Shown piece after piece: positions 2,453 to 62,880 of a stretch of DNA of 64,000 bases. Position numbers and translations under genes: made by a program. The notes under the pieces were generated by a model. The model did no database searches. It saw only the letters and a list, made by a program, of their open reading frames with translations, and had not been told where the DNA came from. The DNA comes from Raillietiella orientalis (taxonomy: Eukaryota). Each line of letters opens with the position of its first letter. Within the stretch, counting starts at the first letter, position 1. The stretch is taken from positions 6,076,001-6,140,000 of the forward strand of contig JAYWIR010000002.1 in the NCBI GenBank assembly GCA_036172245.1, written 5' to 3'.

Positions 2453-2494
2453 CTAAATGGATACATAAAAAAGTGAATATAAACACATACTTAC

Positions 2495-5460: not shown

Positions 5461-6379
5461 TAATCAATATCCTGGTTGATGAAATTTTTTCAAGTCTTCA
5501 AAAGAGCAAGGAAAAGAATGCTGCGATGCCAACTCCACGCAACCACGCAAGCTCGTGAAAAGTACTTCGAGACTGAGAATGCAATGAAGCAGTACATGTG
5601 ACAAAGTTTGGACGAATCCCCCCCCCCCCCATCAGATGAAACGGCATAAATGACATTGGCAATTTAACAATGTAACACGGAAAAATGATCTGTGTAAATA
5701 CAATGCGTGCAATATGACGAACACGTGATTTTCAAGCCTTGCCATTGCAGACGTGCATAATGGTTTTCTTGAGAAAATCTGTGATCCTTAATTGCTAGAT
5801 CCTTCCTGATCCAGCAACGCATTCTAGAAAATCCAGGAGGAAGCATTTTTGCATGAAAATCATAATGAAAAAAAATGCATTCGTATAGCACTCCGGCAAA
5901 ACCTTTTTTATTCCTTAAATTGTCTTCGAGTCAGCTTTCTGTCTCGAATGACCACATGTTTGCTAAGAAACTCGCGAAATGGAAGTCCAACCTTTTATCG
6001 ATACAAAATCGTTAGAATGTGTGTTTGTTTGAAAAACAACCTTGTAGCTTATCAGGGAGTTTTGATTTCATTTTGCACCTTCATCACAAAATAAATCGAA
6101 AAGTTAATAAGAAGAGATTTCTCAACTTATTGTAAGGGCATTCATAACTTTTGGTATCAAGCTGGTACTAAATTTTTTCCACTGTTACAGTTACCGCGGC
6201 TTGATTTTGACCACTTTTCCCTATTACGGGGTTGTGAAGTCCGAAAAGATGCATAACCAGCCTCACCCAGAGTCATACACACTCAAGGTATACGCATTGG
6301 TCTAAGACTTCACCTAGGCTCCCTTTTTTCACTTAATTTTCGTATGATGAAGCATACTTGCACGCGGATGGAATGTATA

Positions 6380-8250: not shown

Positions 8251-8429
8251 CGCCTTTATCTTTCCTGATCAATATATTTGTAATGAAAGCTAGAATATAT
8301 TAAATTATATTTTAGAAGCGGTGCATCTGTCAAGAGCTAAGTCCCCAGAGAAATCCGTAGCCAAGGGAACGGACCACCCAGGAGGACCAGTTTCAATTCC
8401 CGGCATGGAAACCAGTGGAAAAGGGTTCC

Positions 8430-8464
8430 ATCGCTTCTTGGCCTTTTGGCTGAGATCAAAGTGT
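8430..8464 (+). pseudogene. U2 snRNA 5' fragment (nt 1 to ~35)
   Basis: ATCGCTTCTTGGCCTTTTGGCTGAGATCAAAGTGT matches the U2 5' end ATCGCTTCTCGGCCTT(T/A)TGGCTAAGATCAA(A)GTGT with 2 substitutions, and stops within the branch-point recognition sequence. Confidence 0.9.
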
Positions 8465-9600
8465 CGGGTAGATTGTGTGCATTATATAGATTTACAGAGA
8501 TCAACCTTTCACCCCCGATTTGTCTACCATTGACTTAAATATACCCCTCTCAGGTATAACTAAAGTTCGGTAGCGACTATCGAAGGAGGTCGTAGTTTCA
8601 GGCTTCGTCTGCAGTCTCCTACTTCAAGCAGAGCTGCCGATGTTTGGTTACTTTTCGAGCAAGGTCCAGCACTGGCTGGAAAAGCATGGTTATAGCCATG
8701 TTTCTAAGGTTGAGTAAATGAGGGGGCGTGCTCGGAAGCACACATTGATTCTCAGCTTGCCGACAAACCGAAGACAAAGAGAAAATAGTCTGTGCAGAGC
8801 CGAAAATTCTCTGTCTTCTAGCGGCTATTTATCTCTCATAGCACACGGACAGAAAGCATTTTGCAGCCGTCCGCGCTTCTGCTATTATTTTGGATGCAGT
8901 GATAAGAATCAGCTGGTATCAAACAGGAGGAGGAACACCTCTGCCTCCGTCTGACTAAACTTTCGTTGTTCTTGTAACCGTGCTTGCGGCTGCTTACTTG
9001 AGATCATGAAAACCATAAAAGCACTTGGCGAATCGATATTGCATGAATTTTCAAGTCTGCAAACGAAAAATGGAATAAATGATTAAATCTTAGGTAACGG
9101 TGGGGATTGTGGATCTCGCGGAATCACATGTGGAATAACATTCCATCTTACACTTCTTACAGATATGAAATGTGGCAGCCAGGGAAGTTTCCGGTGCGTT
9201 GATGGCAAGCGATCTCCACCAAAGTCCAAAGGCGGGTAGAATTTGTTTTCACTTTGAAGGCTGCACACTCTAAGAGGACTGCATATGTATATTGGTGGCT
9301 TGGATCCGTGAATCCAGCTTGGCAATTCCATCCTACCAAGGAAGGAGGACGAACCATTTGGGACGAAGGCGTCCCCAAAGCAGGAAGACAGAAATCAAAA
9401 GCAGTACTCTGGATTCGGAGGAAAGGAACCCTCAACCGTGTTTGCCGTGTTCTGACTCCTGAAGAACCAAACGGTTTGCCACAGGCTTACGAGAAACTAG
9501 AGGGTGAACGATAACGTGTGATGTCTTTAATCGAAGATTGTTTGCTGGAGATGCTTGATGTGGCCATAGCTGATTGCACTGTGAGGATCTGTGCATATTT
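8465..9600 (+). mobile_element. 5'-truncated degenerate LINE reverse transcriptase (CR1/L2/Jockey-like)
   Basis: Starts with VDCVHYIDLQRSTF (vD.i.lDf.KAFD-like), then GRSFRLRLQSPTS...FEQGPAL (GvpQGs.L-like), a K.LGV-like motif ~9085 and a Y...W.P thumb-like motif ~9290. The right boundary is uncertain. Confidence 0.55.
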
Positions 9601-10749
9601 GTTGGGCCAGGCCTAGCAAATATTTCATTACTTGTGTGAAAAGACGTGTTTTCTTTTTCTTCCTTTGTTTGGAAGTTTCGTTCAAGGAACTTTCCTCCCG
9701 GTGAATTTCATCAGTCCATTATTAGAATGTGAAGTCATGCATGTATCCTGAGTTTTAATTCCTATCCTTGGAAATTTCAATTTCAGTTTTTTTTTTTTTA
9801 CTTTGAGCTTTCGAAGAATTCTCCAAAAGGCTGCTCCTAATGTATATATCAAGGTAATTAGAAATGCCGTTCATTAAGGAATTTGAATGTGTCGGAATGA
9901 AGGGTAAATAGTCTGACAATTCCGAAAGCAAACTTTTGTGTGATTTTCTGTTTATTATGAATGATGAGAATCAGATTTGTGACCTCGAAACCAAATTCTT
10001 TTTCTTTGAGACTTGTGTCTGTTTTCTGTATATGTGAACTGTCTGCATATGTCTGTCATCTGTATTAATTTCTAGGTTCGGTACTAGGACGAACTTGTTT
10101 TAGAGGACTGGAAGTTTCATCATACTTATGATTCCCAAACAAAAGATTTAGGATGTCAATGATTGTTAGGATGAACCTTTAAAAGCAAGAGCAGTCACTT
10201 AACAAGAGTTAAGCATTTGTAAGACCAGTCCTTAACGTTCTTCGAATGAATAATGTATCTAAAGAAAGTCACCAAGACTGTCTATTATTGAGAACTATGA
10301 GTCAGAGTGAGAATACTAGAATGTATGCCATATAGTTAAATATGATTTAAACCAAGCATGATGCATGTTTCTTTTTTGAGATTCCCTTTCCTATTGCATG
10401 TTTTCGTAGCATATTTTTCTAATTTGCTGATATCAGCAAATTCGAAAAATATATTATATGCAACCTGTTATAGAAATTCCATTGCAAGCATATTTCATTG
10501 TTTAATAATGAGATATGCTAGAAATTAGATGAATTATGGTACTGAAAAAAAAGTGACTATCACCATTTTGCATGTGGTAACAAGAGTATATTAAAAACAA
10601 AATGTTGGGAATGGCACTGAAGGACATAAGCACTTTGGAAGATTTGATGCCATTTAAAATGAGAATGGAAGCCATCTTGGTCGCTTGCTTTCCATAGCAG
10701 TACTGATGCTACTTATCTGTTAGCTGATATCATCAAAATTCCTCCTTAA

Positions 10750-13600
10750 AATTTCTGCCTGTTGTCTTCGAATGATTGTGAACCATGCTGGAGCATGGTT
10801 CACAACCATCAAACAGATCAGCACACATGGTGCATCTTTTTGATGAGACAAACACCAATTTCGGAATTTCCCCGTGCTAAACTGCGAGTATTTTTTTTTA
10901 AACAATGGGGAATCTTAATTTCAAATAGAGTAGGAACAAGTGCAACCAGAAAGTACTATTCAAGTGGAATTAGGATAGGACCTGGGATGTAGGATTAGCA
11001 AGGTTGCAATAATTGTTAGAATGTTCCAATAATTTCAAAGAGGCTGCTCTTTTAAGGATTCAGCATAATTCTTGGTTACATCATTTCCTAAAATTTAACC
11101 ACTTCCTGCAGTTTCAAAGGAGTTCAGGTCACGTGTAAACTGGAATTTAACACAGCAATATAAGAGTTTGGTTAGCAGAAATAAATAATTTTTAGTTGCC
11201 TGTGCAGCCGTTCTTTAAGGGTTCTCCAGAAGACATACTTGAGCATTCTGCTGGCGAAACATTTTATGATGCACATCTGTAGGATATGACTGCATTCAGG
11301 ATCCTATTCATAGGCTTGAACAGGTAGGATGCAAAAGAGAACTAAATGTTGTATACCTCGAGCACCAAATTTGTGCGTGTGACATATCTATTGATGATTC
11401 AGCACTTCCCTTTATACACAATTTCTTGAAGTGGACTGAAATTACAAGTTTTGCGTGCTAGTAAACTTCTTTTCAAAGAGGCAGATAAAATCAAATTCAA
11501 GGTACAACGATGAGCAAAGGTGTTTACAGCAGAAAGCCCTTGGATTCTTATGAGGTTTACACGAAACAAATGCATCAAATACTACTCGGTTTGAATCCAA
11601 AAGGGTAAATAAAATTCATTTTGAAATTTATGAGGCGACAACGTAAGAAGGAAGCCTTCCGTTGCTCCCATGAATGGAGCTACTCCGTTCTCGATTTATT
11701 TCGCATTTGAGATGAATGGGAAGCATCGATTTGATCCGCAGTAGTCGGGCCTTATTCTTGCCTCATTTTACCCTGATGTCGGTATTCATAACATCCATAG
11801 CTGCAGTTTTGCATTACTTATCATAATTAAACAGATGTCCGTATCACCACATTGAGCCGAACTGGATGTCTAGTCAAGAGCCAGCTGTTCTCACTTATGC
11901 AGCTTTGCCACATTTATCATAGTTCTACCTTTTTCGACTTCTTGACGAGGCAAAGAGATGGGGCAAAGGTTCTTATGCAAATATTTTTGCGTTTCCCTCT
12001 GCACCAACTCAAGTGGCCAATATGTTGCTGTTTTGTTCTTCCTCGGAGAGGCAACCCTGCTGCGTCTGTGCTGGAGAGATTCGTGTTCTGAGATCTTTGT
12101 TGCTCCATTTACTTGCATCTTGAAGCGTGGATCGCTGCACTAAAGCCAGTGCGGTAGATTCCAGACTTCTTAGACCTCATGCTTCCTTGTGCCTCGTTGC
12201 TACCACCACAGTTGCGTCCTTCCTTGTATACCGAATAAAAATGTGTAATTGGTGCTCAGTAGGTGCTCACCACAGTTGCGGTGCTATTTCGTCTCAGCCA
12301 CAGGTAATGGCATCTGCCCGAATTCACCGGCCAATTCTCCCTCGTGATTTGGGGTGTAGTAGGCAGTTGGTGTGTGTCTGCCATTGAGAGTGAATTGCGT
12401 AATCAGCAATCTTGAGGCGCTACTTGAGTTAGTAGGCAGCAGCTCGGTAAGGGTGCTGATGGAATCTCTCGTGGTGTTTGCTTAGCTGCTTTTGCTTAAT
12501 CAGGAGCAGCTCATGTGAAGCTCGTTGATACAGATTTTCCAGTTCAGTTTTTCGGATCCAAATCGGTCGGAAGATGCTCAAACGCTGTTCCGCGAACTCG
12601 CCATCTTTATTCAACTGATCCTCGAAAATGTGAAGTTCAATTCTGCACCACGTTTGATTCGTTAATGAAATCGACGAATTATGAAAGGGAGCTGAGGAAT
12701 TCAACCTTCCTGCTTCCCACAGCACAGCCGCACCAACATTTCAGAACCCAAGCATGCATTCGATCGCATCGGAAGCGGCCCGCATTCATCTCCGAAGCCC
12801 CGACCGCTTACGATAAAATATATGTATATTTTTCATGGGTACGCTAGTCATTTTGTATGCTGGGTGCCTGGGAGGTTTAAATGCAAAATTCAGGGTTATC
12901 AGCTCTGCTTTCGAAAGGCATTTTCCCCGACTAGTTACATGTGGGTCGGAAGCGGATCCTGACTGATTGCAGGATCCGCACGAAAGAGCTGTTCTGCCAA
13001 CGAGAACAGTCAGGACGTTGCACGAGCTCTGTGCTTTTGTCGCAAGGTAATCTGGCAAACTCCAGTCGGGAACGGCAGGTACGACGTGTTGCCATCTCAA
13101 CATTACGGTCCCCCAAGCGCCATGGGCCTGAACGGACCTGCGTTTTCTGGGATTTACAGATGTGATGGCTTGCGAAACGTGGCTCGGACGCTTCGGCGCG
13201 TTTACGCCGCGAGCTCCAGAGTCAAAACTATGGTGCCTCTTTTTTTCTTTTTCCCTAGCTATCATTATCTTTCCCGGCGATATGTGCCCTCAATTTATTT
13301 CAGTCACGATTCTGGTGTACCGGCGCACACCTTCCCGAAGATGCGGTTTCAATGCTTTCTTGCGAGCGGGTCCAGTGTATCGAACGATTCTCTCTTGTTC
13401 TTGCTTCATGAAGCCTGTGCAGTATTGCAATACGGTCCTCCTTACACCGGGGGTGTAGACCCAATGTGCAGTACGCAGAACATCCATCCCAATAATGCCA
13501 TTGATTTTATCCACGTGGCAGCTCAGGGGCATAGCTGATTTTTGATGTCTGAGTGACTCTGAGTTGTAGCCATCTGGTATATAGATCGGAACCGCTTCAC
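10750..13600 (-). mobile_element. Degenerate Ty3/Gypsy pol (protease-RT-RNaseH-integrase)
   Basis: Protease tail GIIGMDVL (~13490), RT start MLRWQHVVPAVPDWSLPDYLATKAQSS (ML..GII.PS.SPWSSP..LV.K.DGS-like), VEFL ~12700 and integrase QFT ~11135. Confidence 0.65.
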
Positions 13601-21700: not shown

Positions 21701-21779
21701 CGAAGACGTCCTCTAGCGGCGAAGAGGAGGAAGGTTGCCTGTGTTTGATCTCCTTCCTTTGTCTCTCCTGCCCACGCTG

Positions 21780-22273
21780 GCCTCCGCGCGTGGCACCAGG
21801 TGTTGCGGATTCGGATCTACACGTGGAGGATCGACTCCTAGGAATAAGGTGCATCGTGGGTTTTAGAGCCCCCCTCCCCCCACAGGATGACACCGATTGG
21901 CCTCTTCGGGTACACCACTGGCGAAAGCTGGAAACCTTTGGCTTCCCTTCCAGCTGTGGAAATGGAGTCGTTACCACGGAGCTGGTCGATACCCCCCTCC
22001 CCCTCGGGGGATCGCCTCTTTAGAGTGTTAAGAAGTGCACTGCTCCCTTCGGGGAGCTCCCTTCAGAGAAATTGGGAAGCGTCGCTTCGGGGAATTCTCT
22101 TCAGAGGAGGAACCCAAAAGCGCATCCCTTCCGGGCTTCCCTCCGGAGAAGAGACGAGGAAACACCCACTCCGGTGGTCCCCCTGGGAAGAACAAGGAAG
22201 AGGTTGCCCTCGGGATTCCCTACGAGGCGTAAGGAGAATCGACTCCTTCCTCCGGAGCCTTCCTGGATGCTGA
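21780..22273 (+). repeat. tRNA-headed GC-rich repeat X (SINE-like), copy 1
   Basis: Head GGCACCAGGTGTTGCGGATTCGGATC is homologous to 29642-29670 and 47855-47880(-). Body is homologous to 29820-30000, 41290-41400 and 41760-41912. Confidence 0.6.
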
Positions 22274-22274
22274 A

Positions 22275-22823
22275 TGGACCGTGTTGCCCTCAGGCTCCTG
22301 TGGGAATGTTTCGGAACGACCCTCCGGATCCCGGTTGGCACCCCCCTTCCCCAGGGACGTTTCACGGTTCCTCTTTGTGTGAGACTCCTTGCAGCCAGAT
22401 ACAGCGCTTCGCTGTATCCGCAGGATCATGACGTCCAAGAGCGAAGCCGACGGAGGGAGAGACGAGAGGGACGCCGTCCAGTTAGCAGTTCGCTTTCTGC
22501 AGATGGCCTCCAGACGACCCCACCCGGGACCTATTCGGACGGACCTAGGTGGCATCCTTTCCAGGATGCCGACTCGATCCAGCGGACAGTGGTCCCTACC
22601 CGATCCTACCAAAGATTTTCATTTCTTTTTATTTACTCTTTCTTTTTTATTTTTTGTTTTGTTTTCTCCCCTCCCCTCTGCTGCAGAGGGGACCCCGCCG
22701 GCCTCCGTACTGGCGACCCGGAAGGCCCGTTGAAAAACGAAGTGTGATAGGACCACGCGTCCTAGTGCAATTCATGAGTTTATTTTGAATTTCAAGAAAC
22801 GCCCCGGCGTGTCCAGGTGGAAA
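22275..22823 (+). mobile_element. L1/Tx1-like family 1, 5'-truncated 3' fragment (copy a)
   Basis: RVALRLLWECFGTTLRIP...HPGPIRTDLGGIL is homologous to 62320-62677 and is followed by the full 3' module. Confidence 0.8.
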
Positions 22824-23099
22824 TCGGAGACATCTAGGGAGGGGGTTCCTCCGAGGTTTCCCACGAAGCATGAGAGGAATGGACTCCTTCCTCCTGAGCC
22901 CTTCCTGGAATGTTGAGAAGGCCACCTCCCGGGGTACCCCTTAACGTGAAGAGTTAACACTCACCCCCGGGTGAGTTGTCAAAGAGCTTCGCGAGTCCCC
23001 AGGTGAACGGTTCTTCAGTACTTAGCGAACCTGGAGAAAAGAAAAAAACCTGGAGAAAAGACAGCGAAGCAGAAACCAAAAGGATGTCCATCATCCTCA

Positions 23100-24970
23100 G
23101 TTTCTGAACCTGCGTCCTCTTCAGCTGCGGAGCGATCTCCTGATGTTTTGCCTCTTCTTGGGTTCTCGAGAGGGTGAGCGCCTCTTCCGTATTTTCAGAC
23201 GGACAGGGGACATAGAGGATCATCCTTTCAACCGCCTTCCGCGGCACCGGATCGGCTCTCAGGCTGGAGTCACACCCGGGTGCCGTTTCCGTTGCCGAGA
23301 CCAGCTGCCATGCAGCGGCATTCCTAGCTGCTGCCACCAATCGTGGTGCAACTTCGCCATGCCCCTCTGAGCACAGACGAGAGTTCAGTAATTTTCGAAA
23401 TGCGAGGCGGAGTCTCGTCCCATGTCACACGGCGCTGGCATGACCCCTCCCCTTGGGGCCTTGTGATACGCCCCAGTCGGCAGCAGATCGAGTCTCGCCG
23501 CGTGGATGAAGCGGCAGTCGGCAAATCTTAGGTACACCTCCCCGTCGTAACAAAGTAACTCAACGAACGATCGAGTCCAGCGCGTCGCATGGCTTTCCGT
23601 GGTCCGGCTGTCGATTCGCCACTTCCAGCCACCGCGCACTCCCTCTGAACCTTGCGCATCATCGACGCGAACCTCCTCCTCGTTGCTGCATCGAATACCA
23701 GGTCTCCGATTCGAATCCTCACATCTTGGTGGAAGATCTAAGTGGCTGGCATGCGATGGGACTTGCCTTCGAGTGGTCCAAATGCTCTCAGTGCCTCCAC
23801 TGGTCTGAATTTTGTTGTTGAGTCGCTGGATGAGAATCTTCCAAGGTCTTCCTCCGACGGTGACTGCAGTAGTTTTGTATCACCATCGCCCGAAGAGTTG
23901 TTGCTCGGCGGGATTCTTGACGGCAATATCAGGGGATATCGGGAGTCTGAAGCAACTGTTGATGGTGAAAGTGTTGGCTTCATCTGACGGTCGCATTAGT
24001 TCCAGGCGTCCTTCCTCCTGTCCCCATATAGGGATTCATTCGCAGCTCCTGTTGGCAGGTGCGGTGTTGCCTTCACAGTTGTCCTTATCTCGCTGTCGGC
24101 GTACTCTCAATCAGTCTTGAATGAGTCCCTAGTCTCCGAAAAAGTACCGAGCTGGGAAAGAAGGTCTTCAGTGCATACAGCTTTTGCCAGGGAGGCAGTC
24201 CAGAAGCTCACAAGGTTCGGACTGTTCTTCACTACCCCTTCCTTCGTGGGAATATTGCCGAAGACTTCAATCCCGATACTTTTTCCCAAGATGTCTGTTT
24301 TCCCAGATGTCTGTGTGGTTCAGATATCGCAGTGTTCAAGATGATACCGCCCCTTACTTTCAAATTCGAATTTCTCTAGCCACGGGAGTCTTCCGGAATA
24401 ACAATAAAAAAAAAGTCCCTCACATTGGCCCGATTTATCGAGAGCGCAGCTCGGGACGCGAGATCTTCAAAATGGAGTGGCCTTTCCCTCAGATCGCAAC
24501 GGTGCCGGCGTTCCTCTAGCCGAGAAGGGGAGAAACGGTCCCTTGTATTTGATCTTCCTTCGCTTCGTTGCGATTACCGCTTTTGCCGTCCAGCCCACCT
24601 TCTAGGAAAAAGCGCCGTCGCAGCAAGTCCGAAGAGAGCGACCTCCGAAGAGAGTCGCCATTACGTGCCCTTCGGAGCGCTGCAGTCCAGCAGGAGGTGC
24701 GAGAGAGAAATCTCATCGCCCCGCACTTGGAACAGCTCAGAGAGGTAACTCCCCAGGAAACGAGGTGCCTGCGCTGGTTGCACTAGAGTCCCCCCAGTGC
24801 GGAAGCAGCAGGACATCCTGTGGTTTCCAATGAAGCGAAAACGCAGAAGTGTCCGCGCACAAAGAAGGGACCAGCGTCGGTCCCTCGAGGAGCGCATCGA
24901 GCAGGTCCCTCCACTGGAGGAGCTTCTTCTCCCGGGAACGAGGAGTGGCGGCGTTCACCAACTTGCTCAA
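23100..24970 (+). mobile_element. Degenerate L1/Tx1-like ORF2 remnant (possible endonuclease end plus RT)
   Basis: 24680-24930 (AVQQEVRERNLIAPHLEQL...VRKQQDILWFP) is clearly homologous to 53720-54050(-), which runs into the family 1 zinc finger. The upstream endonuclease motifs are weak. Confidence 0.55.
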
Positions 24971-24999
24971 TTCTTAGCTGTCGAGTAGTTTCTCGACTC

Positions 25000-26535
25000 C
25001 TGCGATGCTGCAGGACTACTCCCACCCCGCCGGCGGACTGCTGTTACTGCTTGCATTGAGGACAGACAGTGTTCTGCGGCGAGGATCGAGACGGGTATCC
25101 AGGACCAATTCCTCCATCTTGCAGGTCGCCCAGCGGCTTGCATAGGAGTTTCCGCAGCAGTCGTAGTTCCTCTGGACCCAATCCCAGAGTGGCCGCTCAA
25201 AACTCTCGTGTCTCCTACCCCCAGGAGTCCCAGTTTTGTAGCATAGTGACATCCAAGGAAGGGATCCCAACACTCTAGGCACAGTTGCCTCGTAGGAACG
25301 CCGAATCCTGACATCCTGCGCTTGCCGCGCATCGCCGGAGGATGTGGCGTGCCGGAGCATGCCAGTGACAACTCCACAATCTGGCACAAACGGTCAAAAG
25401 TCGGAGTCGCACCTGCAGTCCGATCTTGCAGATGATCAGGATGCCCAAGCATTCTGGAGCGGCGCCACCAAATCTTTCTGTCGGATCCGGAAGATCCGTG
25501 TGCAAGTCCCAGCTCCAGGCGTGCTGCCTCTTCCTGATGTGCAGCGCATAGTGCTGTGAGCCTCTGCGGACACTTCGCTGTTCCCCAGGGCGAAAGAAGA
25601 TGAACCGGATGCCGGCCTGCTCCTCTTGAGGAGGCTGGCTTCAGCTTGCAGATGGGAGCGACGTGAAGATGTGGGCATTCGAAGCCCCTTCCTTCGGCCT
25701 CCACTTTGGGAGTGATCCTCGCAGGCCACCACCAGTTTTCCTACCTTGATGGGAACATGGCTAACTGTGTCGATGTCTGTAGCATCCCCAAGTTTCATCC
25801 GCCAGCACAACATCCGCCGAAGAAAAATTCCTTTTTTTCCTTTGTTCCACCTGTTGATGCGTCTTGATCAGTGTGGTGGGTTGGTGGCTATCACGTGCGC
25901 CACTGAAACTGCTGCCGGCTTGTCTGGAGGCCCAGTGTCTTCTCTCCTCGAAGACTACCTCGAGGGCATTGGATGTCAAGATTTGCTACGAATGTTGCTC
26001 ATGGAAGGTGGTTCCCCTCTAGGAGTCTTTCGAAATTTCGATAACCAGCTGAAGAGCTCTGCCTTTCCTTTGAGTTTCCTCCCCTGCAACGAGTGCAAGT
26101 TTCCCACCAGAGAAGCGCTGCGATTCAGACTACAATTCTCACCTACGACTCCAGAGGGCGATCACCTACACCTCACGACTCTGCCGTCATGTCGTTTCTC
26201 AACAGTCAGTAGTGCAGCAGCTGAGTGCGTATCCCAAAGGTGCTTGGAGAGGCGTGCCGTTTTCTTTTGCCTTTGGGACTCCCGTTCACCCCACCCTTTC
26301 TTGCGCTGACGCTCAAACTCCTGCTGAACGTTCTCACGAGTTTGAGAGTGGAGTGATCACCACCTTCTTCTCCCAGGTTGTTGGATGGCAAGAAAGCGGT
26401 AGGTGTGGACGTCTGATCCCCTTGCGGATCTTCTGCTGAAACACCGGGGGGGGGAGGGGAGGCTCAGAAAGAAGGACAGAGACAGACGATCGACTCCCCG
26501 AGTTTCCTCCGGAGGATCGTCGGCTTCTGCTCTTT
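25000..26535 (-). mobile_element. Degenerate non-LTR RT remnant
   Basis: PEETRGVDRLSLSFF (SPG.DG...F-like), PTTWEKKVVITP (P..W...V.PI.K-like), KIGLQV ~25420 and a YKLG-like motif ~25235. Confidence 0.45.
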
Positions 26536-29010: not shown

Positions 29011-29624
29011 AGCACTTTTTCGCCACGTTGTACGGATCCGCACCATGCGGGAGTCCGCTGTACTTATTTAAGGTTCTGGGAGCACGGCACTCGTGGACAC
29101 TTGGAGCTGGAGGCCTGACGGCACAGTCTGGTTGGTTCCCACTCTGTCATTCTGACAGCTGCGGTCCAGCTCCCTCTGCGGCTGCTCGGGAGGGCAGGAG
29201 CTGTTCTGTAACCCTCAGGCAGCCGGCCACGAGGAACCCGGACTGCGGCGCGGTTGGATCTTTCTTCTTGCTGGACTGGTGGAGTTCTTTTCTACCGGCC
29301 GCCTGCTTGAAGTCACAATTCGGCTCTGTGCTGTTGTGTGCCAAAAAGTCGATGCTGCTGGCAACGCTCGCGACCTGTCCAGACAGTCTCCAGAGGACTC
29401 CAGAATCCCGCCGGAGGAGCTGGCTGGGGTGGAGAACCAGGAACGAGGACAAGCTGGCTGGAACACCTGCCTTGCTGAAGAAGCATGGAGGCGCTCAAAG
29501 ATGAAATTTGGAATGGCACGGCATAAATCGATAATCGTCTTGCAGGAACCTTCAGCGCATTATCGACAGGACAAGAAGTTCGGTGTGACCGAGAGGGTGA
29601 GTCCGCGATGACGGCTGTGCGGCT

Positions 29625-30000
29625 GCGGTCCCCGCGTGCACGGCACCAGGTGTCGCGGGTTCGAATCCCCACGTGAAGGATCGAGGCGGGAGAATTTCGA
29701 GTCCCCTCAGCCCCCCCGCAGGATGACGCTGCTTGATCCACGGGCTTCGGGCGCGGCACTGGTGAAAGCTTTCGTTTGCTGGCCTCCGGGATCCCTCCAG
29801 CAATCAGGGAGCCACTGTTTCTTTCGGAGAGCGCCCTTCAGGGAAATCGAAAAGCATCCCTTCGGATGGTTCTCTTCAGAAGAGAAATCCAGCAGCTTTC
29901 CGGGCTCCCTCCGGAGAAGAAAGGAGGAGGAGTCCACTCCGAGAGTCCCTCCGGAGAGAAAAACTCCGCGGTTCTCTTTGAAGTTCCCTCCCGCCTGAGA
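29625..30000 (+). repeat. tRNA-headed repeat X, copy 2 (interrupted; resumes at 30929-30990)
   Basis: Perfect B-box GGTTCGAATCC at 29658-29668. Body is homologous to 22050-22270. Confidence 0.65.
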
Positions 30001-30928
30001 CTCATCGGCATCCACGCCCGCTGATCGATGTGCAAGATCTGAAGAGTCCTAGCATGAGCGCGTGGGCAGAGCGGACCTTGCTGCAACGATGCCCTTCCTG
30101 AAGAGGGAACTTGGTAGTAGACAAAATCCGAGGTGGAAAGTCTCCTACGAGATCACAGGCAGGCGGAAGCTGAAGAGTGGGTAGGCCATAGGGAGACTGA
30201 CCGACGCTGCGACCCCGAGTGCTACGAGCCCGTAGAAGGCTACGAGGACTCCGCTGCTGGCGAGCTGCTCGGCATTCCTAGAGAAGACCTGGAGTGGCCT
30301 CCAGTGCTCAAGGACAGCAGCATCCTCCCCTTGAAGTGGGAAGGGACGGCATTTCTGCTGTTGCTGCACTGGGGTCTTCCCTGAAACTCCTGCCGACACC
30401 ATTGGACGCTAGGGAGGGCGAGCCCGGACCATCGCAGGTGCAAGGAACGGGAATCCTTTGAGCACCTGCTTGTGAACCGTGTTTCCCTCCGGCCCCTGTG
30501 GGAACGTTTCGGAACGACCATGAGGACCCCCGAAGGGACGGTAACCCCAGGGACGTTCTACAACTCCTATTCACGCGGGATGCCCTTCCGCCAGCCGCAG
30601 CCTTTACGACTCTTTGCTGCATTCCATCCGGTACTGTGGCGACCTGGAACGATGCTGAAGGAGGACCGAACGAAAGGGACGCCCCACCCAGTTTGCAATT
30701 CTTTTTCTGCGGACAGCAGCCAGAGGACCCCACCTGGGACCTATTCGGGCGGACCAAGCTATCCTGGAAAGGATGCAGACTTCCTCCAGAGGACAGTGAT
30801 CTATACCCGACCCTTCCAAAGATTTTTATTTATTTATTTTCCTTTTGTGGTAGGACCACGCGCCCTACCACAATTTGTGATTTTCTTTTAAATTTTAATA
30901 AACGCCCCGGAGCGTCCTGGTGGAAATC
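30001..30928 (+). mobile_element. L1/Tx1-like family 1, 5'-truncated copy b with TSD
   Basis: LLGIPREDLEWPPVLKDSSILPLKWEGTAFLLLLHWGLP followed by RCKERESFEHLLV, a zf-RVT-like CCHC region. Flanked by GAAGTTCCCTCCCG at 29980-29993 and 30929-30942. Confidence 0.85.
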
Positions 30929-31099
30929 GAAGTTCCCTCCCGAGCTTAAGAGGAACGGACGCCTTTCTCTGGAGCCCTTCCTGGATTCCTAAGGTTGAAT
31001 ATAGGCCGTCGAAGAAACCCTCTTTAACTCCAGTTGCACGGCTGGTGTCAATGGATACCGGAGACGAACTCGTCGGGACCGCGAATTGCATCGAGGACT

Positions 31100-36329: not shown

Positions 36330-36720
36330 CCTGTTTAACCCTTTCTCCGTGTTGTACAAGACCTAATGTCCCGCATAACGTATGACCTTCCCGCACCCGT
36401 TGTTGGATTGTGCTTGCCCTCCCGAGTGTCCAGGAACACTTTTCTGCTGAAATGCCACTCCTCTGCAACGGCAGAGAGGAAGTCTTGCGGCGCCTCTTCG
36501 CGCGCGACTCGATGTCGCCTGCAGCTTCCCTTACAGCTCCGTGCTGCTTTCGTGGGATCGTGGCAGCAACAAACCGCGCCGAAAGAGGCCAGTTGAAGGG
36601 TGAGGTCATCGCAATCGCCTGCTCCTTCGTGAGGAAGGAGACAAGACGGCCACATCTCTTCCAACAAAAGGAGGAAGTTGCCAACGTCTTCCAGAGGACG
36701 CTGAAGACGCCAGGAAGAAA
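36330..36720 (-). mobile_element. BEL/Pao integrase core remnant
   Basis: CDDLTLQLASFGAV (ELV.DLT..FL.A-like) and FLSAVAEEWHFS (I.WHF-like). Confidence 0.4.
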
Positions 36721-36989
36721 TCTGCGATCCCTTCCCTCCCCCCCATACATTTTTTAAAACTGAAGTCATGTTTTTGTTTTTATTTTTGTTTACCCCTTCC
36801 CTCACTCCTGTGCGGACCTCATCAGGGCTCTGCTCTCGAGAGGCAGCAGAGAGTCCGAGGCACCTCACTTCACAGAGGCGATGGGAAGCCACCACGAAAA
36901 AAAAGCCATTTTTTAATATTTTATATGACTGTGTGTACGCACAAAAAAAGTGGCGTGACCAGGGGGAAAAGATAACGCTGCGAAAAAAA

Positions 36990-41289: not shown

Positions 41290-41912
41290 TCGCGCCGAAG
41301 AATCAGCGTTCCTTCGGGGCTCTCTCCAAAGGAGGATACAAGGAGCGCTCCCCTTGAGGGTGGGTTTCCTCCGGAGAAGGTGTTCGTGAACGAAGGAAAT
41401 CCCTTCCTATCAGCTGCAGCAGCCACTCGGTGGCGGAGTTCGCCATGACGAAGAGCTGCCGTTCGCTGCCAAGAAGCGTTTCAGAAGGACCAAGGTGTGC
41501 ATCCTCTTCCTCTCCTTGGTGCTCCTGTTCTCCTGCCTCGGCTGTGGTTGCACCACCTACCCATCAGCTCGGAGACAACATAGCGGCCCCTTACTCCTTC
41601 CACCCCGTACCCCACTCCCAGCCCTCTTCCCGTCGGACCGTTGCGGGAAGCTTTCGACTTCTTAACCATCGCCGTTATGTGGAAGCCATGTTCATGCGAA
41701 ACACAGAAGTGTTCCAAAACCTCTCGGACGGAAGAGCCTTGGAGGCGGAGAAGAAATTCAGAAGCGGACCCCTTCGGAGAAGGAACAAGGAGCGCCCCCG
41801 TATGAACGGGGTCCCTCCGAAGAGAATCTGGATGATGGTGGTTCTCTTCTGGGTTCCCCTGCAAAGCGTGAGAGGAACGGACACTCCTTTTTCAGGAGTC
41901 CTTCCTGGATCC
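41290..41912 (+). repeat. Two partial copies of repeat X body (41290-41400 and 41760-41912)
   Basis: CCCTTCGGAGAAGG...GTCCCTCCG...GAGAGGAACGGACACTCCTT...CCTTCCTGGAT is homologous to 22140-22270 and 30945-30987. Confidence 0.55.
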
Positions 41913-42149
41913 ATCGAGTGGTCCCTCTGGGGTTACTTCTTAACATGGAGGGTCACATGCACCCTCGAATGGCATGGACAACATTAAGGAGCTTCGTGAA
42001 CCTCATCCCCCATGAGGGTGTAGATGCTTCTTCAGCACTCGGCAAACCAACAAAAAAAAAAGTCTGGAAAGGAGCTGGAAAGGAAGCAGCGCAACAGGAG
42101 AACTGTTGCGCTGCTTCCTTTCCTATCATCTCATCCCATCATTCCCATT

Positions 42150-42858
42150 ATCAAACCAATGGTTTCCTCCGGAGGAGGTGAAGTGGTCCCAGCGTGCTGG
42201 AACGGTGGTGCCCTCCTCCTCAAGTGGCAGGAGTCGGTGTTGCTGGTGTTGCATGGGCGGATCCTGTGCAAAATGCGCCTTCGCCACTGGACACGGGGGG
42301 AAGGGGGATGCAGGAAGAAGGAGACCCTTCCACACCTGCCGCTGGACTGTGTTGCTCTCCGACCCCTTTGGAATCGTCTCGCGGAGACCTCAGGATCCCC
42401 GGTGGACGACCCCAGGGACACTTTCAGACTCTTCTTCGGGCATGGTGCCGCACTGCCGCCAGACCCCGTCTCTCGCACTCCTCTGCCGTCCGCTGAAGAA
42501 GAAGAGGGTTGAAATAGCAAGGACGCATCCTCTGGGCATGGATCTTCCTGAGGACCACCTCGAGGTGGCCCCACTTGGGCTCTATACAGACCGAAATTGC
42601 CAGCATTCTGGACAGGCTGCAGAGGACGCCGGGCAGCGTACTGTGATCCCTCTTCCCCTCTCCTCCCGTGTAGAATTTCCCCAACCCTGGCTCGTACGTT
42701 TGTTTGTTTTTTGTTTTTGTTTCCCTCCCTCACGCTGCCGGAGGGGGCTTTGCCGGTCTGCGCACCGCTCTTTGGCAGGTACGTCGCGCGTGGCAGAACC
42801 GACGGTTCTACCACACCAGTGGATTTTTGTAATAAATACCCTAGCACAACCGGGTGAT
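42150..42858 (+). mobile_element. L1/Tx1-like family 1, diverged 3' fragment (copy d)
   Basis: LLLKWQESVLLVLHGRIL...GCRKKETLPHLPLDCVALRPLWNRL (zf-RVT CCHC-like), followed by the full 3' module with AATAAA at 42831. Confidence 0.8.
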
Positions 42859-45400: not shown

Positions 45401-47323
45401 AAGAAGCGGGATCGGACGCCCAAGAGTTGTAGATGAGCGAGCACGGAGGCGCGCGCGCGCCCGGATAACCTTTGGCCCTTTCGACGCACCCCCCAACATC
45501 TGAGCCGGGATATCTAGGATGCAGAGTTCGCTCGCCGACACATGTGAAAAGGCACTCAGGGCAAAAAAAGAAGGCGCCGGAAGGATTGGTCGTTCGTTCT
45601 TTCGCGCGGACACGCGGGCACCCGACTCCAGGGAACCATCACGAAGGAGGCAGCTGCGCTCGAGACCTGCCGCTGCGGCTGCCAGGAGCGTCCCGTGTTT
45701 CGGAGCGATCACGCGAGGTGTTCCTGTCCGCTCGGTCCGGATGGGGCTGCAAGATGCGCCCACACACCCGAAAGAGGTCCCTCGTGCTTCTTGCGCGCTC
45801 GCGTCGTCCTGCGCCGCCGATACCCCCGAATCCCTTTCCCTCGATTCGGAACGCGCAGGGAGCCCGTCGCACCTTGCGCTCGAAGTCACGTCGGGGCTTT
45901 CCGGTCGCGATACGAGGCGGATCCGCGTCCCTCGCTGGAATGCCGTCGAGAGGGGTTCCTGGATTCCCTTCCCGGTGCCTCGAGAAAGACGCCGCGCTTG
46001 CAGCCGTTCTTCTGCTGGGGCGGATTTCGCTCCCTGCATCGAACTCTTCTTATCAGATCTTCCCTGAGGTTTATTTGCTCTCCCTATAAGACTGGGAGGA
46101 AATGGTTCGTGGAGGGAGAGAGATCCGAAACAAAGGGGAACCTCAGGGTAAGGGAGGAAGCCTCTGGAAACCGCACACCACTCGCAATTTTCATTCTGCC
46201 ACCGCCGCCGCACGTGGGCAAGAACTTCTTGGAGACTGGTGCGTCGCAAGAAAAGCGGCCAAGTGACCGACGCTTAGGGATGAGTCCGTTTCACTTCCTG
46301 TTTGCCGCCAGGTGGTGGTGCCTCTGAATTTTCCAAGGTCCCGTTGGATTGGGGGAGGGGGGAGGTCGCTGGCTGTCCGACCGGACGCTTCAGAGAGATC
46401 CCACAAGGAAGGCACTGGATGTTTTTCCTTGCAGGAGTCCCGCCTGAGCGTTCTAGAAGGCCGGGTGAGGGGCCCGCGAAGGGGCGATGGGAGTGCGGAC
46501 ATCTCACGCTCGCGTCTGCCACCACTTGGAGGAGTCCGGAAGAAGGGTGGACTCGCCCTCGAGCGTTTGCCACACTCGGCTGCTCTCTCACTACCGGGTA
46601 CTACCAGCCTTCAGCAAGAATTCCGTGTTTCTTTGTCGCCGAGTTGGCCGCTTATCGTAGGGGAGGAGGGAGGGGGGCACGTAGGTTTGGCTCTCGACAA
46701 GCCCGCACGGAGTGAGCGACGGCTCTGCTCCTTGGATCCGGGACTCCCCCACCCAGACGGTCAGAGAAAAGAAAGATGGCAGCGGCCGCCGCGCACCACG
46801 GAAGTGCCGTGGTGGGGACAGTGGAGGGAAGGGTCGCCACGAAGGTAGGCGAGCTGCTGTGGAACGCGCCGCTCTCCCGTTCTTGCAGGTTCGCTGCTTC
46901 CTTCCTCACCCCCCTCCTCCTGCCCGACATCAAATCACGTCGGGATGGCAACCTGCAGAGAGAGTTCTAGGAGACTACCGAAGGCATCCCTCCACCGGAA
47001 AGATTCGCTCAACACGAGCTCACAGAGAACGAAAGTGCTTTTCGTGACGCAGTAGCACGAGAATCATAGCAATGCTTCAAGAAAACGTTCTTTTGGGTGA
47101 TTCTCCCCCCCTCCCCCTTCAAGAATCTCCCTCAGGGAGAATCGGTTCTGAATGAACATTTAATGCAAAGGTACTGCCGGATAAAGATGATAATCGCGAT
47201 GAAATGTCTCTCTCCGAAGGGAAGGAAGAGGGGGTTGGATCCATCTTCCCAACCAGAGAGGAACTTCAAAGAATACGTGCGCTCCTGGATTCCCGCAAGG
47301 CCGACTTCTGATCCCGAAAGTTC

Positions 47324-47700
47324 TTACTCGGTTGCGCCAGGGCGTTTATTTATAAAAACAAGCTGCAAGTAAGGGGAGGGAGGGAGAGAAAAACCCCTCA
47401 AAGACACGAAATGCCAGAAAAGAAGTTCATTGCAGGTGACCACCGACACGCAGGCCGGCTTCCAAAAAGTAGGGAGCGGAGGGAGGGCGAGAGAAATAAA
47501 TAAATTAAAAAGACAGGAGGGTGGGAACAGGGATCTTTGATTGAAAAAGTTCCTTCCCTTCTAGAAGCGGCACTGGACGGTGGCAATCTCCCTGGAGACT
47601 TCTTTCGGCAGATGAGGTCATGAGGGCTGCTGCCATTCTGGTGCTTCGCCGCGAACCTGACCCCAACACGTGGGCTGTCACCATGGCGGCGGAGGCAACT
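47324..47700 (-). mobile_element. Family 2 3' fragment (copy e)
   Basis: Homologous to 21350-21700(-). GCCGGC-CTGCGT-GTCGGT hairpin at 47442-47459 and terminal AATAAACGCCCTGGCGCAACCGAGTA. Confidence 0.7.
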
Positions 47701-59399: not shown

Positions 59400-62300
59400 T
59401 CCAGGGGAGCAGCTAGGCGTTACCAGGGACTCTGGAGGGCAGCGCAGCTCAAAAGGCAGGTGAGCGAAGGTTGCCTTTCCACTGCGCCGGGCCCAATCCG
59501 GAGCCGCGCTTCCTTCGGTCCAGTGCTGGAGAGCGGGTAGCTTGGAACAAAAACCCGCATCACACTCACAGCGCCGAGTGTCCTTCCACTTCAGGGGAGG
59601 CACGACGCTGTCCAAAAACACCGCAAGGATCCCCACGTGTCTTCTGAGGGAATTTCCGGAGAAGTCCTTCGGGCTGGACAAGGGTAGCGGAAAAGCGCTA
59701 GATGGTTGACGCGACCGTCCAGCATCCCAACTTTTTCTTTTTCCTACTCTTTCACAGGTAAGCTTCCATCTTGCGGGCTGGACACCGTCCTGGCCCTCCC
59801 GTAGGGAGAGTGCTTCGCGCACGCCTGCTTTTCGTGGGCCTAACCAGCATCTCCTCGGCGGGCAAACGAAGGGCATCAAAAGCGCCACAGTTGATCCGGT
59901 ATCCCAACTTTTTCCTTTTTCCTATTCCCAGAGCAACTGCGAGATCGTGTCGTTGGTTTTCGACCAAGCCTGGACCTCTTCCTGTTTCCAGGTACCGCAG
60001 CTCGCGGGGTGAGTAGGAGATCTAGACGTGCTCCTGCACCAAGGCAACCATCTGCCGAAGATGATGCCCGCATAGGAGCATGCGGCCGTACAAGGGAGAA
60101 TCCTGCCAATTCCTCGGAGCCGGCTGGTTAAGAGTCTTGCAGGAGCGCACCAGTGCATCCATCAATACGGGGTGACCCGCTAGGGCCGGTCTTCGGAACG
60201 ATAGATGGCACACCGTCCTCTGCAGCGTCAGGGCGCCAAGTCCGCCGTGATGGTGCGGAGCACATATAGTCTTTTAAGGGTTCTGAGGGCCTCCCTGCTC
60301 CCCGAAGGACTCTTCGCAGGAGGTCTCCGGTTCACTCTGTGACCTCAGTAGGGGCAGGGCAAACGAAAATAAGGGGGAGATGAACGAGGGTCACGAATGT
60401 GTTCCACGAGGTGCCCCGCTCCGACAAAAGATGTTCGCCATCCAGGGAAGGAGCCGAGAGCCGCCGATTCCACCTTCTGAAGACATCTGGGCCACGCCTT
60501 CTCATGACGGAGTCCCCGAAACAGTATGCCCAGGCACTTCAACTACCTACCCGTGGGGATCCCCTAAGTGGACCCAGTCCGGCTGTCCAACCAACGCCGC
60601 ACCAGCTTCAAACATGAGACGACTTCTCCCTGCTTACCTTCACGCCACGGCGGATCGGCTCGAAGAAGCCATCGAGAGCTGACTCCTGGGTTGGTATGGA
60701 TAACCGCAGAAGATAGTCAACACAGGCAGGCGCGGCTCGTGCCCGGCTGATGTGCCCGGGCACGAGCTTGGCAGGGTTTCCAGTCTCCCTGCATGCCCTA
60801 AGCACCAACCCGAAGTAGGTTCTGAAGAGCAGGGGTCTCGGTCTGTCATCCTGACACGTGACCCACCCGCCGTACTGCCACGTAAAACATGTACCGGCCG
60901 CCGAAGGAAATGCTGATCAAGACGTTGCGCCAGCAGGAAAGCAGATAGGCCAGGAAGACAGCCGGAAGAGCCATGCGTTTCTGGGGCTCCGGACGGTACC
61001 GCTGGTCGACGCAGCCCTCGCAAGTCGACTGCGACTGCAAGGGGAGTCCGACGTTTCTGCATCCAAATGGCCTGCCATTCCCTGGCCAGCTGGGACTCCA
61101 GGATTCCTGCGGCCCACCGGCGCACACCATTGTAGCTGGAGCCATGTGCTGGCCAGGTACAGATTCGCTCCTACGCTCCGTCGAAACTGATGAACGTTTC
61201 GGCCAAGGCCGCCGCAGGCGTTCGGTCCAGAGTTCCGCTGGAGACTTGGCGTCCACGTCCATAGCGGTAAAATCGGACGCCGGTTGCCAGCGTTGAGTAG
61301 GTCTCCTCCTTTCGGGAGAAGACGCACCCCGCTGACTGGAAGGGGGCTGCATCTTGCCTCTTTCTCGAATCATCGCGCACGGCGGTCGCTGCACCAGTGG
61401 GGGTCAGCTCTGCCGCGAAGCACCGATAAAATTCCTCCTCAGGCCGTCCTCCTCTTGTGCCTTTCTGCTCTTGAGTTTCCCGATGGCACGCGAGAGAGAA
61501 CCGTCAGCAAGGAGGCGGGCTGGTGAGTCAAGAGACGTCAACCCTCCTTTGAGCAGGAATTAGGAATCTTCACATTCCCTTGCGTAGCGCTTGCACCCTT
61601 CTGTAGCATTCCAGCAGTAGGTGAAAGGTGTGGGGGGAGTTTCGCTGTTCCGCAGTGGGAGCGTTCCTAGAAGACCCTCCCTACTGAGGCGTGGTAACTC
61701 CCCTTGTTTCAAGGAAGGTTCCGGTGCACCCGCGAGATGGCGATTAGCTCATGGCAGAGAGGAAGGACAGAGGCATCGATCGAGAAGTCCAGGAGCCCCA
61801 AATTTTCTCGAGAAACTGGGTCGATCGTTTTGGGTCAGAAGCAAGATCTCCGAGCACGGCTCCGTGCACCGTACTCGACGTTCTCCACTGAGCGATGTGC
61901 CTGATGGCCTCCGCGATCCATCGGGTTGCCTCCCACACTTCAGAAGAACCCAGATTTTCTTCCTCCTTCCACTAATGCGAGATCGCAGGCAGGCAGAAGA
62001 TGATGAGTGGTGGTTGGACCATGGGACAACTCACGGATGCTGCTACCCCAACTGTACTTTCGCAAGGACAACAGAGTCTTCTGTGGTACTCCAGGGTGAG
62101 GAGAAGGCAATCTGCTCGGCATTCCATCCGAAGACTTGGAGTGGCCCTCAAAGCTCAAGGACAGCAGCACCCTCCCCTTGAAGTGGCAGGGGATGGCACT
62201 TCTTCTGTTGCACTGGGATCTTCCCTGCAACACATCCGACACCAATGGACAGTCGGGAGTGTGAGACCGAACTGCTGTAGGTGCAGGGAATGGGAATTCC

Positions 62301-62880
62301 TCCCGCACCTGCTTGTGAATCGTGATGCCCTCAGGATCCTGTGGGAACGTTTCGGAACGACCCCCCGGATCCCGGTTGCCCGGGCACCCCCCTTTCCCAG
62401 GGACATTTTGCGGCTCCTCTTTGTACGGGAATCTCTGCAGACAGCCGCAGCCCTAGCAGCACTTTGCTTCATCTGCGGGACTGTGGCAACCTGGAGCGAA
62501 GCCGACAGAGGACGAGGCAGGAGGGATGACGTCCAGCTCGCACTTTGCTTTCTGTGGATCTCAGCTCGTTGTCTACACCTGGGACCTATTCGAACGGACC
62601 TAGCCGGTATCCTGGAAAGTATGCAGAATCCATTCAGCGGACAGTGTTCTCTACCCGATCCTTGCAAAGATTTTTAGTTGTTTATTTTTACTCTTTCTTT
62701 TTATTTTTCTTTTCTTTCCTCCCATCCTCCTCCGCTGTCTAGGAGAGCCCCTCCAGTCTGCGTACCGGCGACCTGGCAGGTCCTTCAAAGAATCGGTTGT
62801 GGTAAGGCTCCTTGCCCCTTACCCCGATAGTTGCAAGTCTATTGTTCTTTCCAGTAAACACCCTGGTGTGACAGATGGCG
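59400..62880 (+). mobile_element. Longest L1/Tx1-like family 1 copy i (degenerate ORF2 plus 3' module)
   Basis: RGDPLS (QGDPLSP-like) ~60555, FLG-like ~60980 and CCRCREWEFLPHLLV..LRILWERF zinc finger ~62275. Stop at 62677, then the 3' module. The 5' boundary is uncertain. Confidence 0.75.

What the first reader, a model, noticed from the sequence alone, without database searches (positions are those of the whole stretch)
29625..30990. Tx1-like LINE inserted inside a tRNA-headed repeat with a 14-bp TSD: candidate target-specific pair
Seen: repeat X runs to GAAGTTCCCTCCCG (29980-29993), the truncated LINE follows, and X resumes with the same 14-mer (30929-30942). Copy a is also flanked on both sides by the same part of X. 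Copy d lies shortly downstream of it (41760-41912), and family 2 copy e abuts an X head. All are in the same orientation as X. Known: Tx1-clade elements are often sequence-specific (Tx1L into Tx1D, Keno into U2, Dewa into tRNA spacers). Inference: a new target preference for a SINE-like repeat, or self-insertion if X is the LINE's own 5' end.
Basis: partly seen in the sequence, partly recalled or inferred. Interest (0 to 1): 0.7.

Follow-up and report, generated by a model that had tools for sequence, protein, structure and literature searches.

The report
LINE homing into one SINE site
An old, now dead jumping gene of the LINE-1 type landed again and again at the same few bases inside a common short repeat across this genome; some LINEs are known to aim at other mobile elements, but this kind of landing pad was not found in the papers searched.

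Summary
Confirmed and extended genome-wide. A 935-bp, 5'-truncated L1/Tx1-type LINE (29994-30928) splits a ~930-bp tRNA-headed SINE-like repeat (X), with a real 14-bp target-site duplication.

Targeting: of 85 family copies picked blind to their flanks, 59 run into X in the same orientation, 38 at one nucleotide (X position 560). X covers only 3.3% of sampled DNA, and a sister family scores 0 of 20.

Independent insertions: LINE 5' ends vary widely while the X junction stays fixed 8-18 nt past the site. X is mostly empty and is neither the LINE's tail nor its 5' body.

Corrections: this copy sits at a minor site (X 589). Copy a has a long, atypical duplication. Copy d is a sister family lying outside X. 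Family 2 does not target X. A further family uses X position 175 backwards.

This is a known habit (Tx1L in Tx1D, Tx1-Mar in Mariner) with a target class I did not find in print. Tx1-clade membership is unproven. The scan noted LINE-in-SINE targeting before on other DNA of this genome, from 2-4 cases per window.

The parts
29602..29993 (+). 5' half of SINE-like repeat X (consensus about 1-557/600, with internal deletions; units 4 and 5 fused)
   Evidence: nhmmer and pairwise alignment to the X consensus
29602..29680 (+). tRNA-like head of X, with B-box/T-arm GGTTCGAATCCC at 29658-29669
   Evidence: the consensus head is called by ARAGORN at 90% threshold, 0 of 60 shuffles reach it; motif position; no Rfam match at gathering score
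29980..29993 (+). target-site duplication, upstream copy (13-16 bp depending on how shared edge bases are assigned)
29994..30928 (+). 5'-truncated family-1 LINE (copy b): end of ORF2 and 3' UTR, 85% like the family consensus, about 100 bp missing from the 3' UTR near 30832-30846, no poly(A)
30430..30502 (+). decayed C-terminal zinc-finger motif of ORF2 (reads HRRCKERESFEHLLVNR; the family consensus has the full cysteine/histidine pattern)
   Evidence: translation, consensus; Pfam gave no hit on the decayed copy
30897..30928 (+). 3' terminus: AATAAA, a short hairpin shared by many sister families, and the family-specific last bases AAATC
30929..30942 (+). target-site duplication, downstream copy; insertion at minor site X 589
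30929..30995 (+). 3' part of X resuming (consensus 589-655, then decayed or cut off)
21779..22268 (+). X 5' part before copy a, running to consensus 646 and lacking unit 5
22275..22825 (+). family-1 LINE copy a (551 bp); 3' end at the major site X 560
22826..23063 (+). X 3' part after copy a (consensus 560-808)
41730..42062 (+). X copy without an insert at the unit-5 region (consensus about 413/479-800)
42172..42856 (+). copy d: sister-family LINE (72% like family 1), outside X; not part of the targeting evidence
47321..47698 (-). family 2 copy e, inside a minus-strand X (head 47898-47761, X resumes 47317-47195) at about X 203; incidental
61976..62870 (+). copy c: family-1-like LINE (82%), decayed 3' end, no X on either side

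Best explanation
Family 1 is an extinct L1-group (probably Tx1-type) LINE, about 5.5 kb when full length (ORF1, then endonuclease, reverse transcriptase and zinc finger). It inserted by target-primed reverse transcription preferentially into a tRNA-headed SINE-like repeat X, in X's orientation. The main site is the start of unit 5 of X's internal ~40-bp unit array (X 560); equivalent sites are the start of unit 3 (480) and mid-unit (548/589; this finding). SHOWN: enrichment, single-nucleotide clustering, short TSDs (median 12 nt), independent 5' truncations, an empty X majority, and a full-length copy with X on both sides. INFERRED: its endonuclease recognised a short sequence around C/T-C^G-G-A-G, nicked the bottom strand, and cut the top strand about 12 nt downstream. 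The tail-less RNA end (..AAATC, perhaps with a few read-through X bases) paired with the nicked primer. X was used while its copies were still young.
For: Enrichment: 59 of 85 flank-blind, non-redundant copies run into X, 38 at X 560 and 12 at X 480; 82 of all 117 copies. X covers 6,675 of 200,000 sampled bases; binomial p about 2e-84. Sister family 2: 0 of 20.

TSDs and independence: 65 of 79 X-flanked copies with a visible 5' end have X upstream too. In 21 major-site copies X ends 8-18 nt past the site while LINE lengths are all different, 274-1034 bp. Each 3' flank matches its own 5' junction better than other loci's (permutation p about 1e-4). Minor-site copies carry their own TSD (L031, L126, L202, L036, L160), and an off-target copy has a TSD with no X (L165).

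Full-length copies: 8 aligned 5' ends all follow X unit 5, and L250 has X on both sides. The distance from B box to site ranges 252-574 nt in 12 copies, so sequence rather than distance marks the site. Younger sister families show exact 11-15-bp TSDs (6 of 13 examined). A related intact ORF hits human L1 ORF2p at 3e-36 against R2 at 2e-4.
Against: No endonuclease assay, and no intact family-1 ORF2 was found. 26 of 85 copies are not in X (13 of 68 with the family's own end). Only 24 of 45 major-site copies with X on both sides have a clean short TSD; the others have deleted or over-long 5' X halves. At the major site the two TSD copies share no more private changes than chance (4 against 1.9, p=0.12). 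Long duplications are no more alike than random X pairs. The B-box distances could have changed by deletion after insertion. The consensus sequences were built from the same loci that were then scored.
Confidence: 0.9

Rival explanations
1. Hitchhiking composite: one or a few X-LINE-X chimeras spread as a single SINE-like unit, then lost internal pieces.
For: LINE (85%) and X halves (82% and 84%) are similarly diverged from consensus. TSD pairs share few private changes. One copy (L055) is a full-length insert with an internal deletion.
Against: The 21 major-site copies have 21 different lengths while X ends within an 11-nt band; deletions would move both edges. Only 1 of 65 keeps the LINE's 5' terminus. 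Junction pairs move together between sites.
Confidence: 0.03
2. The X 3' part is the LINE's own tail (a classic SINE-LINE shared 3' end), or X is the LINE's own 5' end (self-insertion).
For: Nearly all 3' ends run into X with no poly(A), and all 8 aligned full-length 5' ends follow X. 14 of 79 X-flanked copies lack detectable X upstream.
Against: Empty X is contiguous across the site, with one copy of the duplicated bases. Off-target copies end at AAATC, one with a TSD and no X (L165). Sister families end at the same hairpin. T-runs about 20-45 nt into the LINE would stop Pol III read-through from X's head (inference from general knowledge).
Confidence: 0.03
3. Specificity comes mainly from RNA-DNA pairing or from tethering to Pol III factors bound at X, with only a weak endonuclease preference. 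Master copies inside X make read-through RNA whose X-derived end primes at nicks in other X copies.
For: No poly(A) at junctions. All 15 unit-3 insertions have TC or TT before the junction although empty X mostly has CC there (17 of 23), so the last bases may be element-encoded. Several copies (e.g. L034, L185, L048, L065, L190, L173 and window copy a) carry 60-240-nt X duplications, two with the 5' edge at the major site and the 3' edge at unit 3. The off-target preference is short: 7 of 11 listed begin TC^GA.
Against: Another family uses X at a different site and on the other strand (10 of 11). Distance to the B box is not fixed. Published Tx1L and R1 endonucleases are themselves sequence-specific (PMC1919474, passages). 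Long duplications can also come from a second nick at another unit or from later deletions.
Confidence: 0.2
4. Chance nesting in a repeat-dense genome, with inserts in X merely surviving selection.
For: The genome is rich in nested elements, and family 2 copy e did land in X by chance.
Against: About 40-fold enrichment for X and thousands-fold for one nucleotide, in a single orientation; the sister family scores 0 of 20.
Confidence: 0.01

Closest known systems
Tx1L of Xenopus laevis, inserted in the non-autonomous piggyBac element Tx1D (PMC4494074 and PMC1919474, passages)
   Same: APE-type LINE with two ORFs that uses another dispersed mobile element as a fixed landing site
   Different: The target here is a tRNA-headed, A-tailed SINE-like repeat, and equivalent sites in several internal units are used. 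No endonuclease test here.
Crocodilian Tx1-Mar in Mariner-N4_AMi, Tx1-9_AMi in Harbinger, Tx1-8_Crp and Tx1-4_AMi in LTR elements (PMC4494074: passages and section 15)
   Same: Old target and old LINE of similar divergence; two preferred regions in one target, used in opposite orientations; hitchhiking excluded by 5'-truncated copies; passes that paper's threshold of more than 20% of flanks (here 69%)
   Different: Those targets are DNA transposons or LTR elements, and the SINEs there are passengers, not targets. Here the clustering is at single nucleotides.
Keno (U2 snRNA), Kibi and Koshi (microsatellites) (PMC4494074, passages); Dewa (tRNA spacers) and Mutsu (5S rDNA) (recalled, from no call)
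   Same: Sequence-specific Tx1-clade elements in multicopy sequences
   Different: Their targets are RNA genes, spacers or microsatellites. Here the site lies 250-570 nt beyond the B box, in the body of a dispersed repeat.
Zepp of Chlorella/Coccomyxa, a self-nesting L1-like element (name seen in PMC5203782 passages and earlier notes; behaviour recalled)
   Same: L1-group element that accumulates in other retroelement DNA; matches the LINE-into-LINE sister families seen here
   Different: Family 1 inserts into a separate repeat, not into itself.

Membership tests
L1 group of non-LTR retrotransposons (L1/Tx1) | ORF2 with N-terminal APE endonuclease, RT and C-terminal zinc finger, closest to L1 ORF2p | tested here: met
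   Full-length copy L250 aligns to the intact EN-RT frame of relative L102 at 38-63% identity. L102: Exo_endo_phos 1.9e-10, human L1 ORF2p 3e-36. The RT core and zinc-finger motif are read in the family consensus. The family's own decayed pieces give at best RVT_1 at E=0.022.
L1 group of non-LTR retrotransposons (L1/Tx1) | 5'-truncated copies with short TSDs | tested here: met
L1 group of non-LTR retrotransposons (L1/Tx1) | poly(A) or simple-repeat 3' tail, as in mammalian L1 (recalled) | tested here: not met
   3' ends stop at AAATC, about 26 nt after AATAAA, with no tail
Tx1 clade | RT phylogeny groups with Tx1L/Keno/Kibi/Koshi | not testable with these tools
   No named Tx1 reference among the hits; best hits are only 24-36% identical; no tree was built
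Tx1 clade | ORF1 of RRM / CCHC zinc-knuckle type rather than Transposase_22 (PMC5203782, passages) | tested here: inconclusive
   Two CCHC-like motifs read by eye in L219 and one in L250; no Pfam hit
Tx1 clade | Target preference: more than 20% of flanks of one sequence type (criterion of PMC4494074) | tested here: met
   59 of 85
Tx1 clade | The endonuclease itself cleaves the target specifically | not testable with these tools
   needs a bench assay
tRNA-derived SINE (repeat X) | tRNA-like head with Pol III boxes | tested here: met
   ARAGORN calls the consensus head at 90% threshold, 0 of 60 shuffles; clean T-arm/B box, non-canonical A box. Individual copies give no tRNA hit; among 12 loci only one weak tmRNA-clan hit at a head, E=0.15.
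tRNA-derived SINE (repeat X) | High-copy, dispersed, non-coding, A-rich 3' end, flanking TSD | tested here: inconclusive
   3.3% of 200 kb. A-rich end seen, but only 8 of 33 copies reach the 3' end motif, and only 1 of 4 complete copies shows a TSD (8 bp, L017). About 930 bp is long for a SINE.
tRNA-derived SINE (repeat X) | 3' tail shared with a partner LINE | not tested
   X does not end in the hairpin shared by these L1-type families; no genome search for another partner was run

The most novel reading that the evidence does not exclude
X is a communal landing pad in a radiation of L1-type families that share one 3' hairpin but have each evolved their own single-nucleotide target: X 560 sense, X 175 antisense, and the RT and zinc-finger codons of sister LINEs antisense, while one family avoids X. 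In family 1 the specificity is partly carried by the RNA: copies inside X read through into X, and that X-derived end pairs with and primes at the same site in new X copies. This self-reinforcing, RNA-assisted homing would explain the tail-less ends and the 60-240-nt duplications.
Probability: 0.25. Interest if true: 0.7.

Novelty: new variant of a known kind. Interest (0 to 1): 0.48.

Why it matters
It adds SINE-like repeats to the targets of sequence-specific LINEs, with genome-wide counts and a built-in negative control rather than two or three cases. The same genome holds close sister families with different targets, some young enough to keep long open frames. That makes it a natural series for asking which endonuclease residues, and how much RNA-DNA pairing, set target choice, a question relevant to retrotransposon-based gene insertion. 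Family 1 itself is dead (about 15% diverged), which limits direct use.

Tried and rejected
- Pfam on the window's decayed frames: no useful hit; none for ORF1 pieces either.
- ARAGORN and Rfam on the window: nothing. Rfam E-value scan of 12 X loci: no tRNA.
- Shared-private-mutation test of major-site TSDs: not significant.
- Identity test of long duplications against random X pairs: not discriminating.
- Plain local alignment of 5' junctions over-extended and was replaced by a joint breakpoint fit.
- The count of bases before empty unit 5 is unreliable (fuzzy matches to other units) and is not used.
- Clade assignment: two homologue searches, one cluster look-up and one Atlas search gave no named Tx1 reference.
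- Family 2 as an X-targeting family: rejected, 0 of 20.
- Copy d as evidence: rejected.
- An LTR/DIRS-like reading (X as terminal repeat): rejected, because empty X is contiguous and the duplication is usually about 12 nt.
- Sequence look-up of earlier findings with copy a's junction: nothing.
- Only one full-length copy was read end to end, so the full-length structure rests on L250 plus the 5' ends of seven others.

Full report
OBSERVATION. The 14-mer lies at 29980-29993 and 30929-30942. Between the copies is a 935-bp fragment, 85% identical to a consensus built from 30 genomic copies. That consensus encodes the second half of an L1-type reverse transcriptase, a C-terminal zinc-finger motif and a 3' UTR that ends without poly(A). 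Leaving the insert out gives a collinear copy of repeat X. The 14-mer differs from the X consensus at three positions, in the same way on both sides, and was found 0 more times in 990 kb of fetched loci. This 3' flank matches other loci's 5' junctions over at most 5 nt. It is a true TSD of 13-16 bp.

WHAT X IS. A search with the window's X gave 42 scored matches from 741 candidates; 28 of them, plus the two window copies, were aligned. X is about 930 bp long. It has a tRNA-like head: ARAGORN calls the consensus at 90% threshold and 0 of 60 shuffles reach it, but single copies give no tRNA or Rfam call. The body holds five ~40-bp units, followed by an internal A-run and an A-rich end; 1 of 4 complete copies shows an 8-bp TSD. 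In twenty 10-kb regions chosen at round coordinates X covers 6,675 of 200,000 bases, and all 7 unit-5 sites seen there are empty. By extrapolation (my estimate) there are about 10,000 copies. 'SINE-like' is justified; a partner LINE was not sought.

GENOME-WIDE TEST. A 23-nt motif 60-85 nt inside the LINE's 3' end, blind to the flank, gave 91 hits against 0 for the control. All 91 were read; 6 near-identical duplicates were dropped, leaving 85. Of these, 59 run into X in X's orientation (score at least 60; shuffled maximum 36): 38 at X 560, 12 at 480, 4 mid-unit (548/589), 1 at 439 and 4 unassigned. Among copies with the family's own end the count is 55 of 68. With the copies and other loci added, it is 82 of 117. 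About 1.7% is expected (binomial p about 2e-84). As a control, family 2 of the window has the same terminal hairpin; 20 of the 39 other hits (those reaching near the 3' end) were read, and 0 of 20 enter X.

INDEPENDENT INSERTIONS. Of 79 X-flanked copies whose 5' end lay inside the locus, 65 have X upstream too. Of the 45 major-site copies among them, 24 have X ending at 560-580. The 21 ending at 565-578 give TSDs of 8-18 nt (median 12) with 21 different LINE lengths, 274-1034 bp. Only 1 of 65 keeps the LINE's own 5' terminus, so these are truncations, not deletions of one composite. 3' flanks match their own 5' junction better than permuted ones (p about 1e-4). An off-target copy has a TSD and no X (L165), so X is not the LINE's tail.

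RESULTS AGAINST. 21 of the 45 major-site copies have deleted or over-long 5' halves. The TSD pairs share no significant excess of private changes (4 against 1.9, p=0.12). That fits insertion into young X copies (LINE 85%, X halves 82% and 84% like consensus) but gives no added proof. Long duplications, including window copy a (X 560-646), are no more alike than random X pairs.

FULL-LENGTH ELEMENT. A search with the 5' end of the longest copy found further 5' ends; the eight aligned all start directly after X unit 5. L250 is about 5.5 kb with X on both sides, a decayed ORF1 with CCHC-like motifs (read by eye; no Pfam hit), and an ORF2 38-63% like the open EN-RT frame of a relative. That relative hits Exo_endo_phos and human L1 ORF2p at 3e-36. 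No named Tx1 protein was retrieved, so 'L1 group' is shown and 'Tx1 clade' is likely but unproven. T-runs just inside the LINE argue against X's Pol III promoter driving it (inference).

MECHANISM. Shown: sites, strand, TSD length, truncation. Inferred: an endonuclease preference around C/T-C^G-G-A-G, with off-target ends often TC^GA (7 of 11), and a second cut about 12 nt downstream. The distance to the B box varies from 252 to 574 nt (12 copies), which argues against tethering at a fixed distance, though later deletions blur this. All 15 unit-3 insertions have TC or TT at the junction where empty X mostly has CC (17 of 23). This, the missing poly(A) and the long duplications leave room for RNA-primer pairing as a second determinant.

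WIDER SETTING. The terminal hairpin has 1,455 matches genome-wide against 0 for the control and marks several families. Among 164 non-redundant ends in my loci (a sample biased towards X), one family enters X backwards at position 175 in 10 of 11 cases, with TSD-like repeats of 10-14 of 14 matches in the 7 checked. Others enter sister LINEs backwards at the RT or zinc-finger codons.

COMPARISON AND NOVELTY. Tx1 families that target piggyBac, Mariner, Harbinger and LTR elements are described in PMC4494074 (I saw passages and section 15). Sequence-specific endonucleases of Tx1L and R1 are described in PMC1919474 (passages). From PMC5203782, PMC3747384, PMC8869645 and PMC3649969 I saw passages only; other papers only as search listings; no supplements. 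Four searches listed no report of a LINE family specific for a SINE. The library lacks most subscription papers (including Kojima and Fujiwara 2004) and Repbase reports, so absence is not proven. Earlier notes of this scan describe LINE-in-SINE targeting and LINE-in-LINE networks in other windows of this genome. I could not confirm that each refers to this same pair (one search found no sequence match), and the host being an arthropod is their statement, not checked here.

VERDICT. A real, well-supported target-specific LINE-SINE pair; a new variant of a known kind; interest 0.48.

Noticed in passing
L027, L030, L044, L065, L074, L012, L152, L161, L169, L214: A further L1-type family inserts backwards into X at position 175 (10 of 11 ends in a sample biased towards X), with TSD-like repeats and insert lengths of 303-951 bp.
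   Followed up: partly
L092, L099, L102, L109, L110, L111, L116, L118: A younger family inserts backwards at one spot in the RT-coding region of related LINEs; exact 13- and 14-bp TSDs in L099 and L118.
   Followed up: partly
L107, L113, L115: Another family inserts backwards just before the zinc-finger codons of family-1-like LINEs.
   Followed up: partly
genome-wide; window 34859, 42850, 47346, 52005, 54542, 58874: A conserved tail-less 3' hairpin just after AATAAA is shared by all these families (1,455 matches); the window holds at least six more LINE ends of this kind.
   Followed up: partly
L067:6292-8001 (+); L102:1498-3021 (-): Long open frames of younger relatives (570 aa RT; 508 aa EN plus RT start, cut by an inserted element), only 24-36% like any database protein: candidates for endonuclease assays.
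   Followed up: partly
L034, L185, L038, L069, L048, L065, L190, L173; window 21779-23063: Duplications of 60-240 nt of X around the insert; origin unresolved (distant second cut, read-through RNA, or later rearrangement).
   Followed up: partly
L050/L051, L053/L054, L217/L218, L220/L221, L223/L224 and others: Many loci occur as near-identical pairs a few to tens of kb apart on one contig, often inverted: recent segmental or inverted duplications, or an assembly feature.
   Followed up: no
window 1-12000 against 20000-64000: GC rises from about 30% in the first 4 kb to 55-63% in the repeat-rich part.
   Followed up: no
window 41304-41381 (+): Isolated X fragment (consensus 415-488) about 350 bp before the X copy at 41730, possibly one X split by another insert.
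   Followed up: no
window 59036-60992 (-), 52980-53829 (-), 24642-25499 (-), 36378-36969 (+): Further decayed L1-type fragments of sister families.
   Followed up: no
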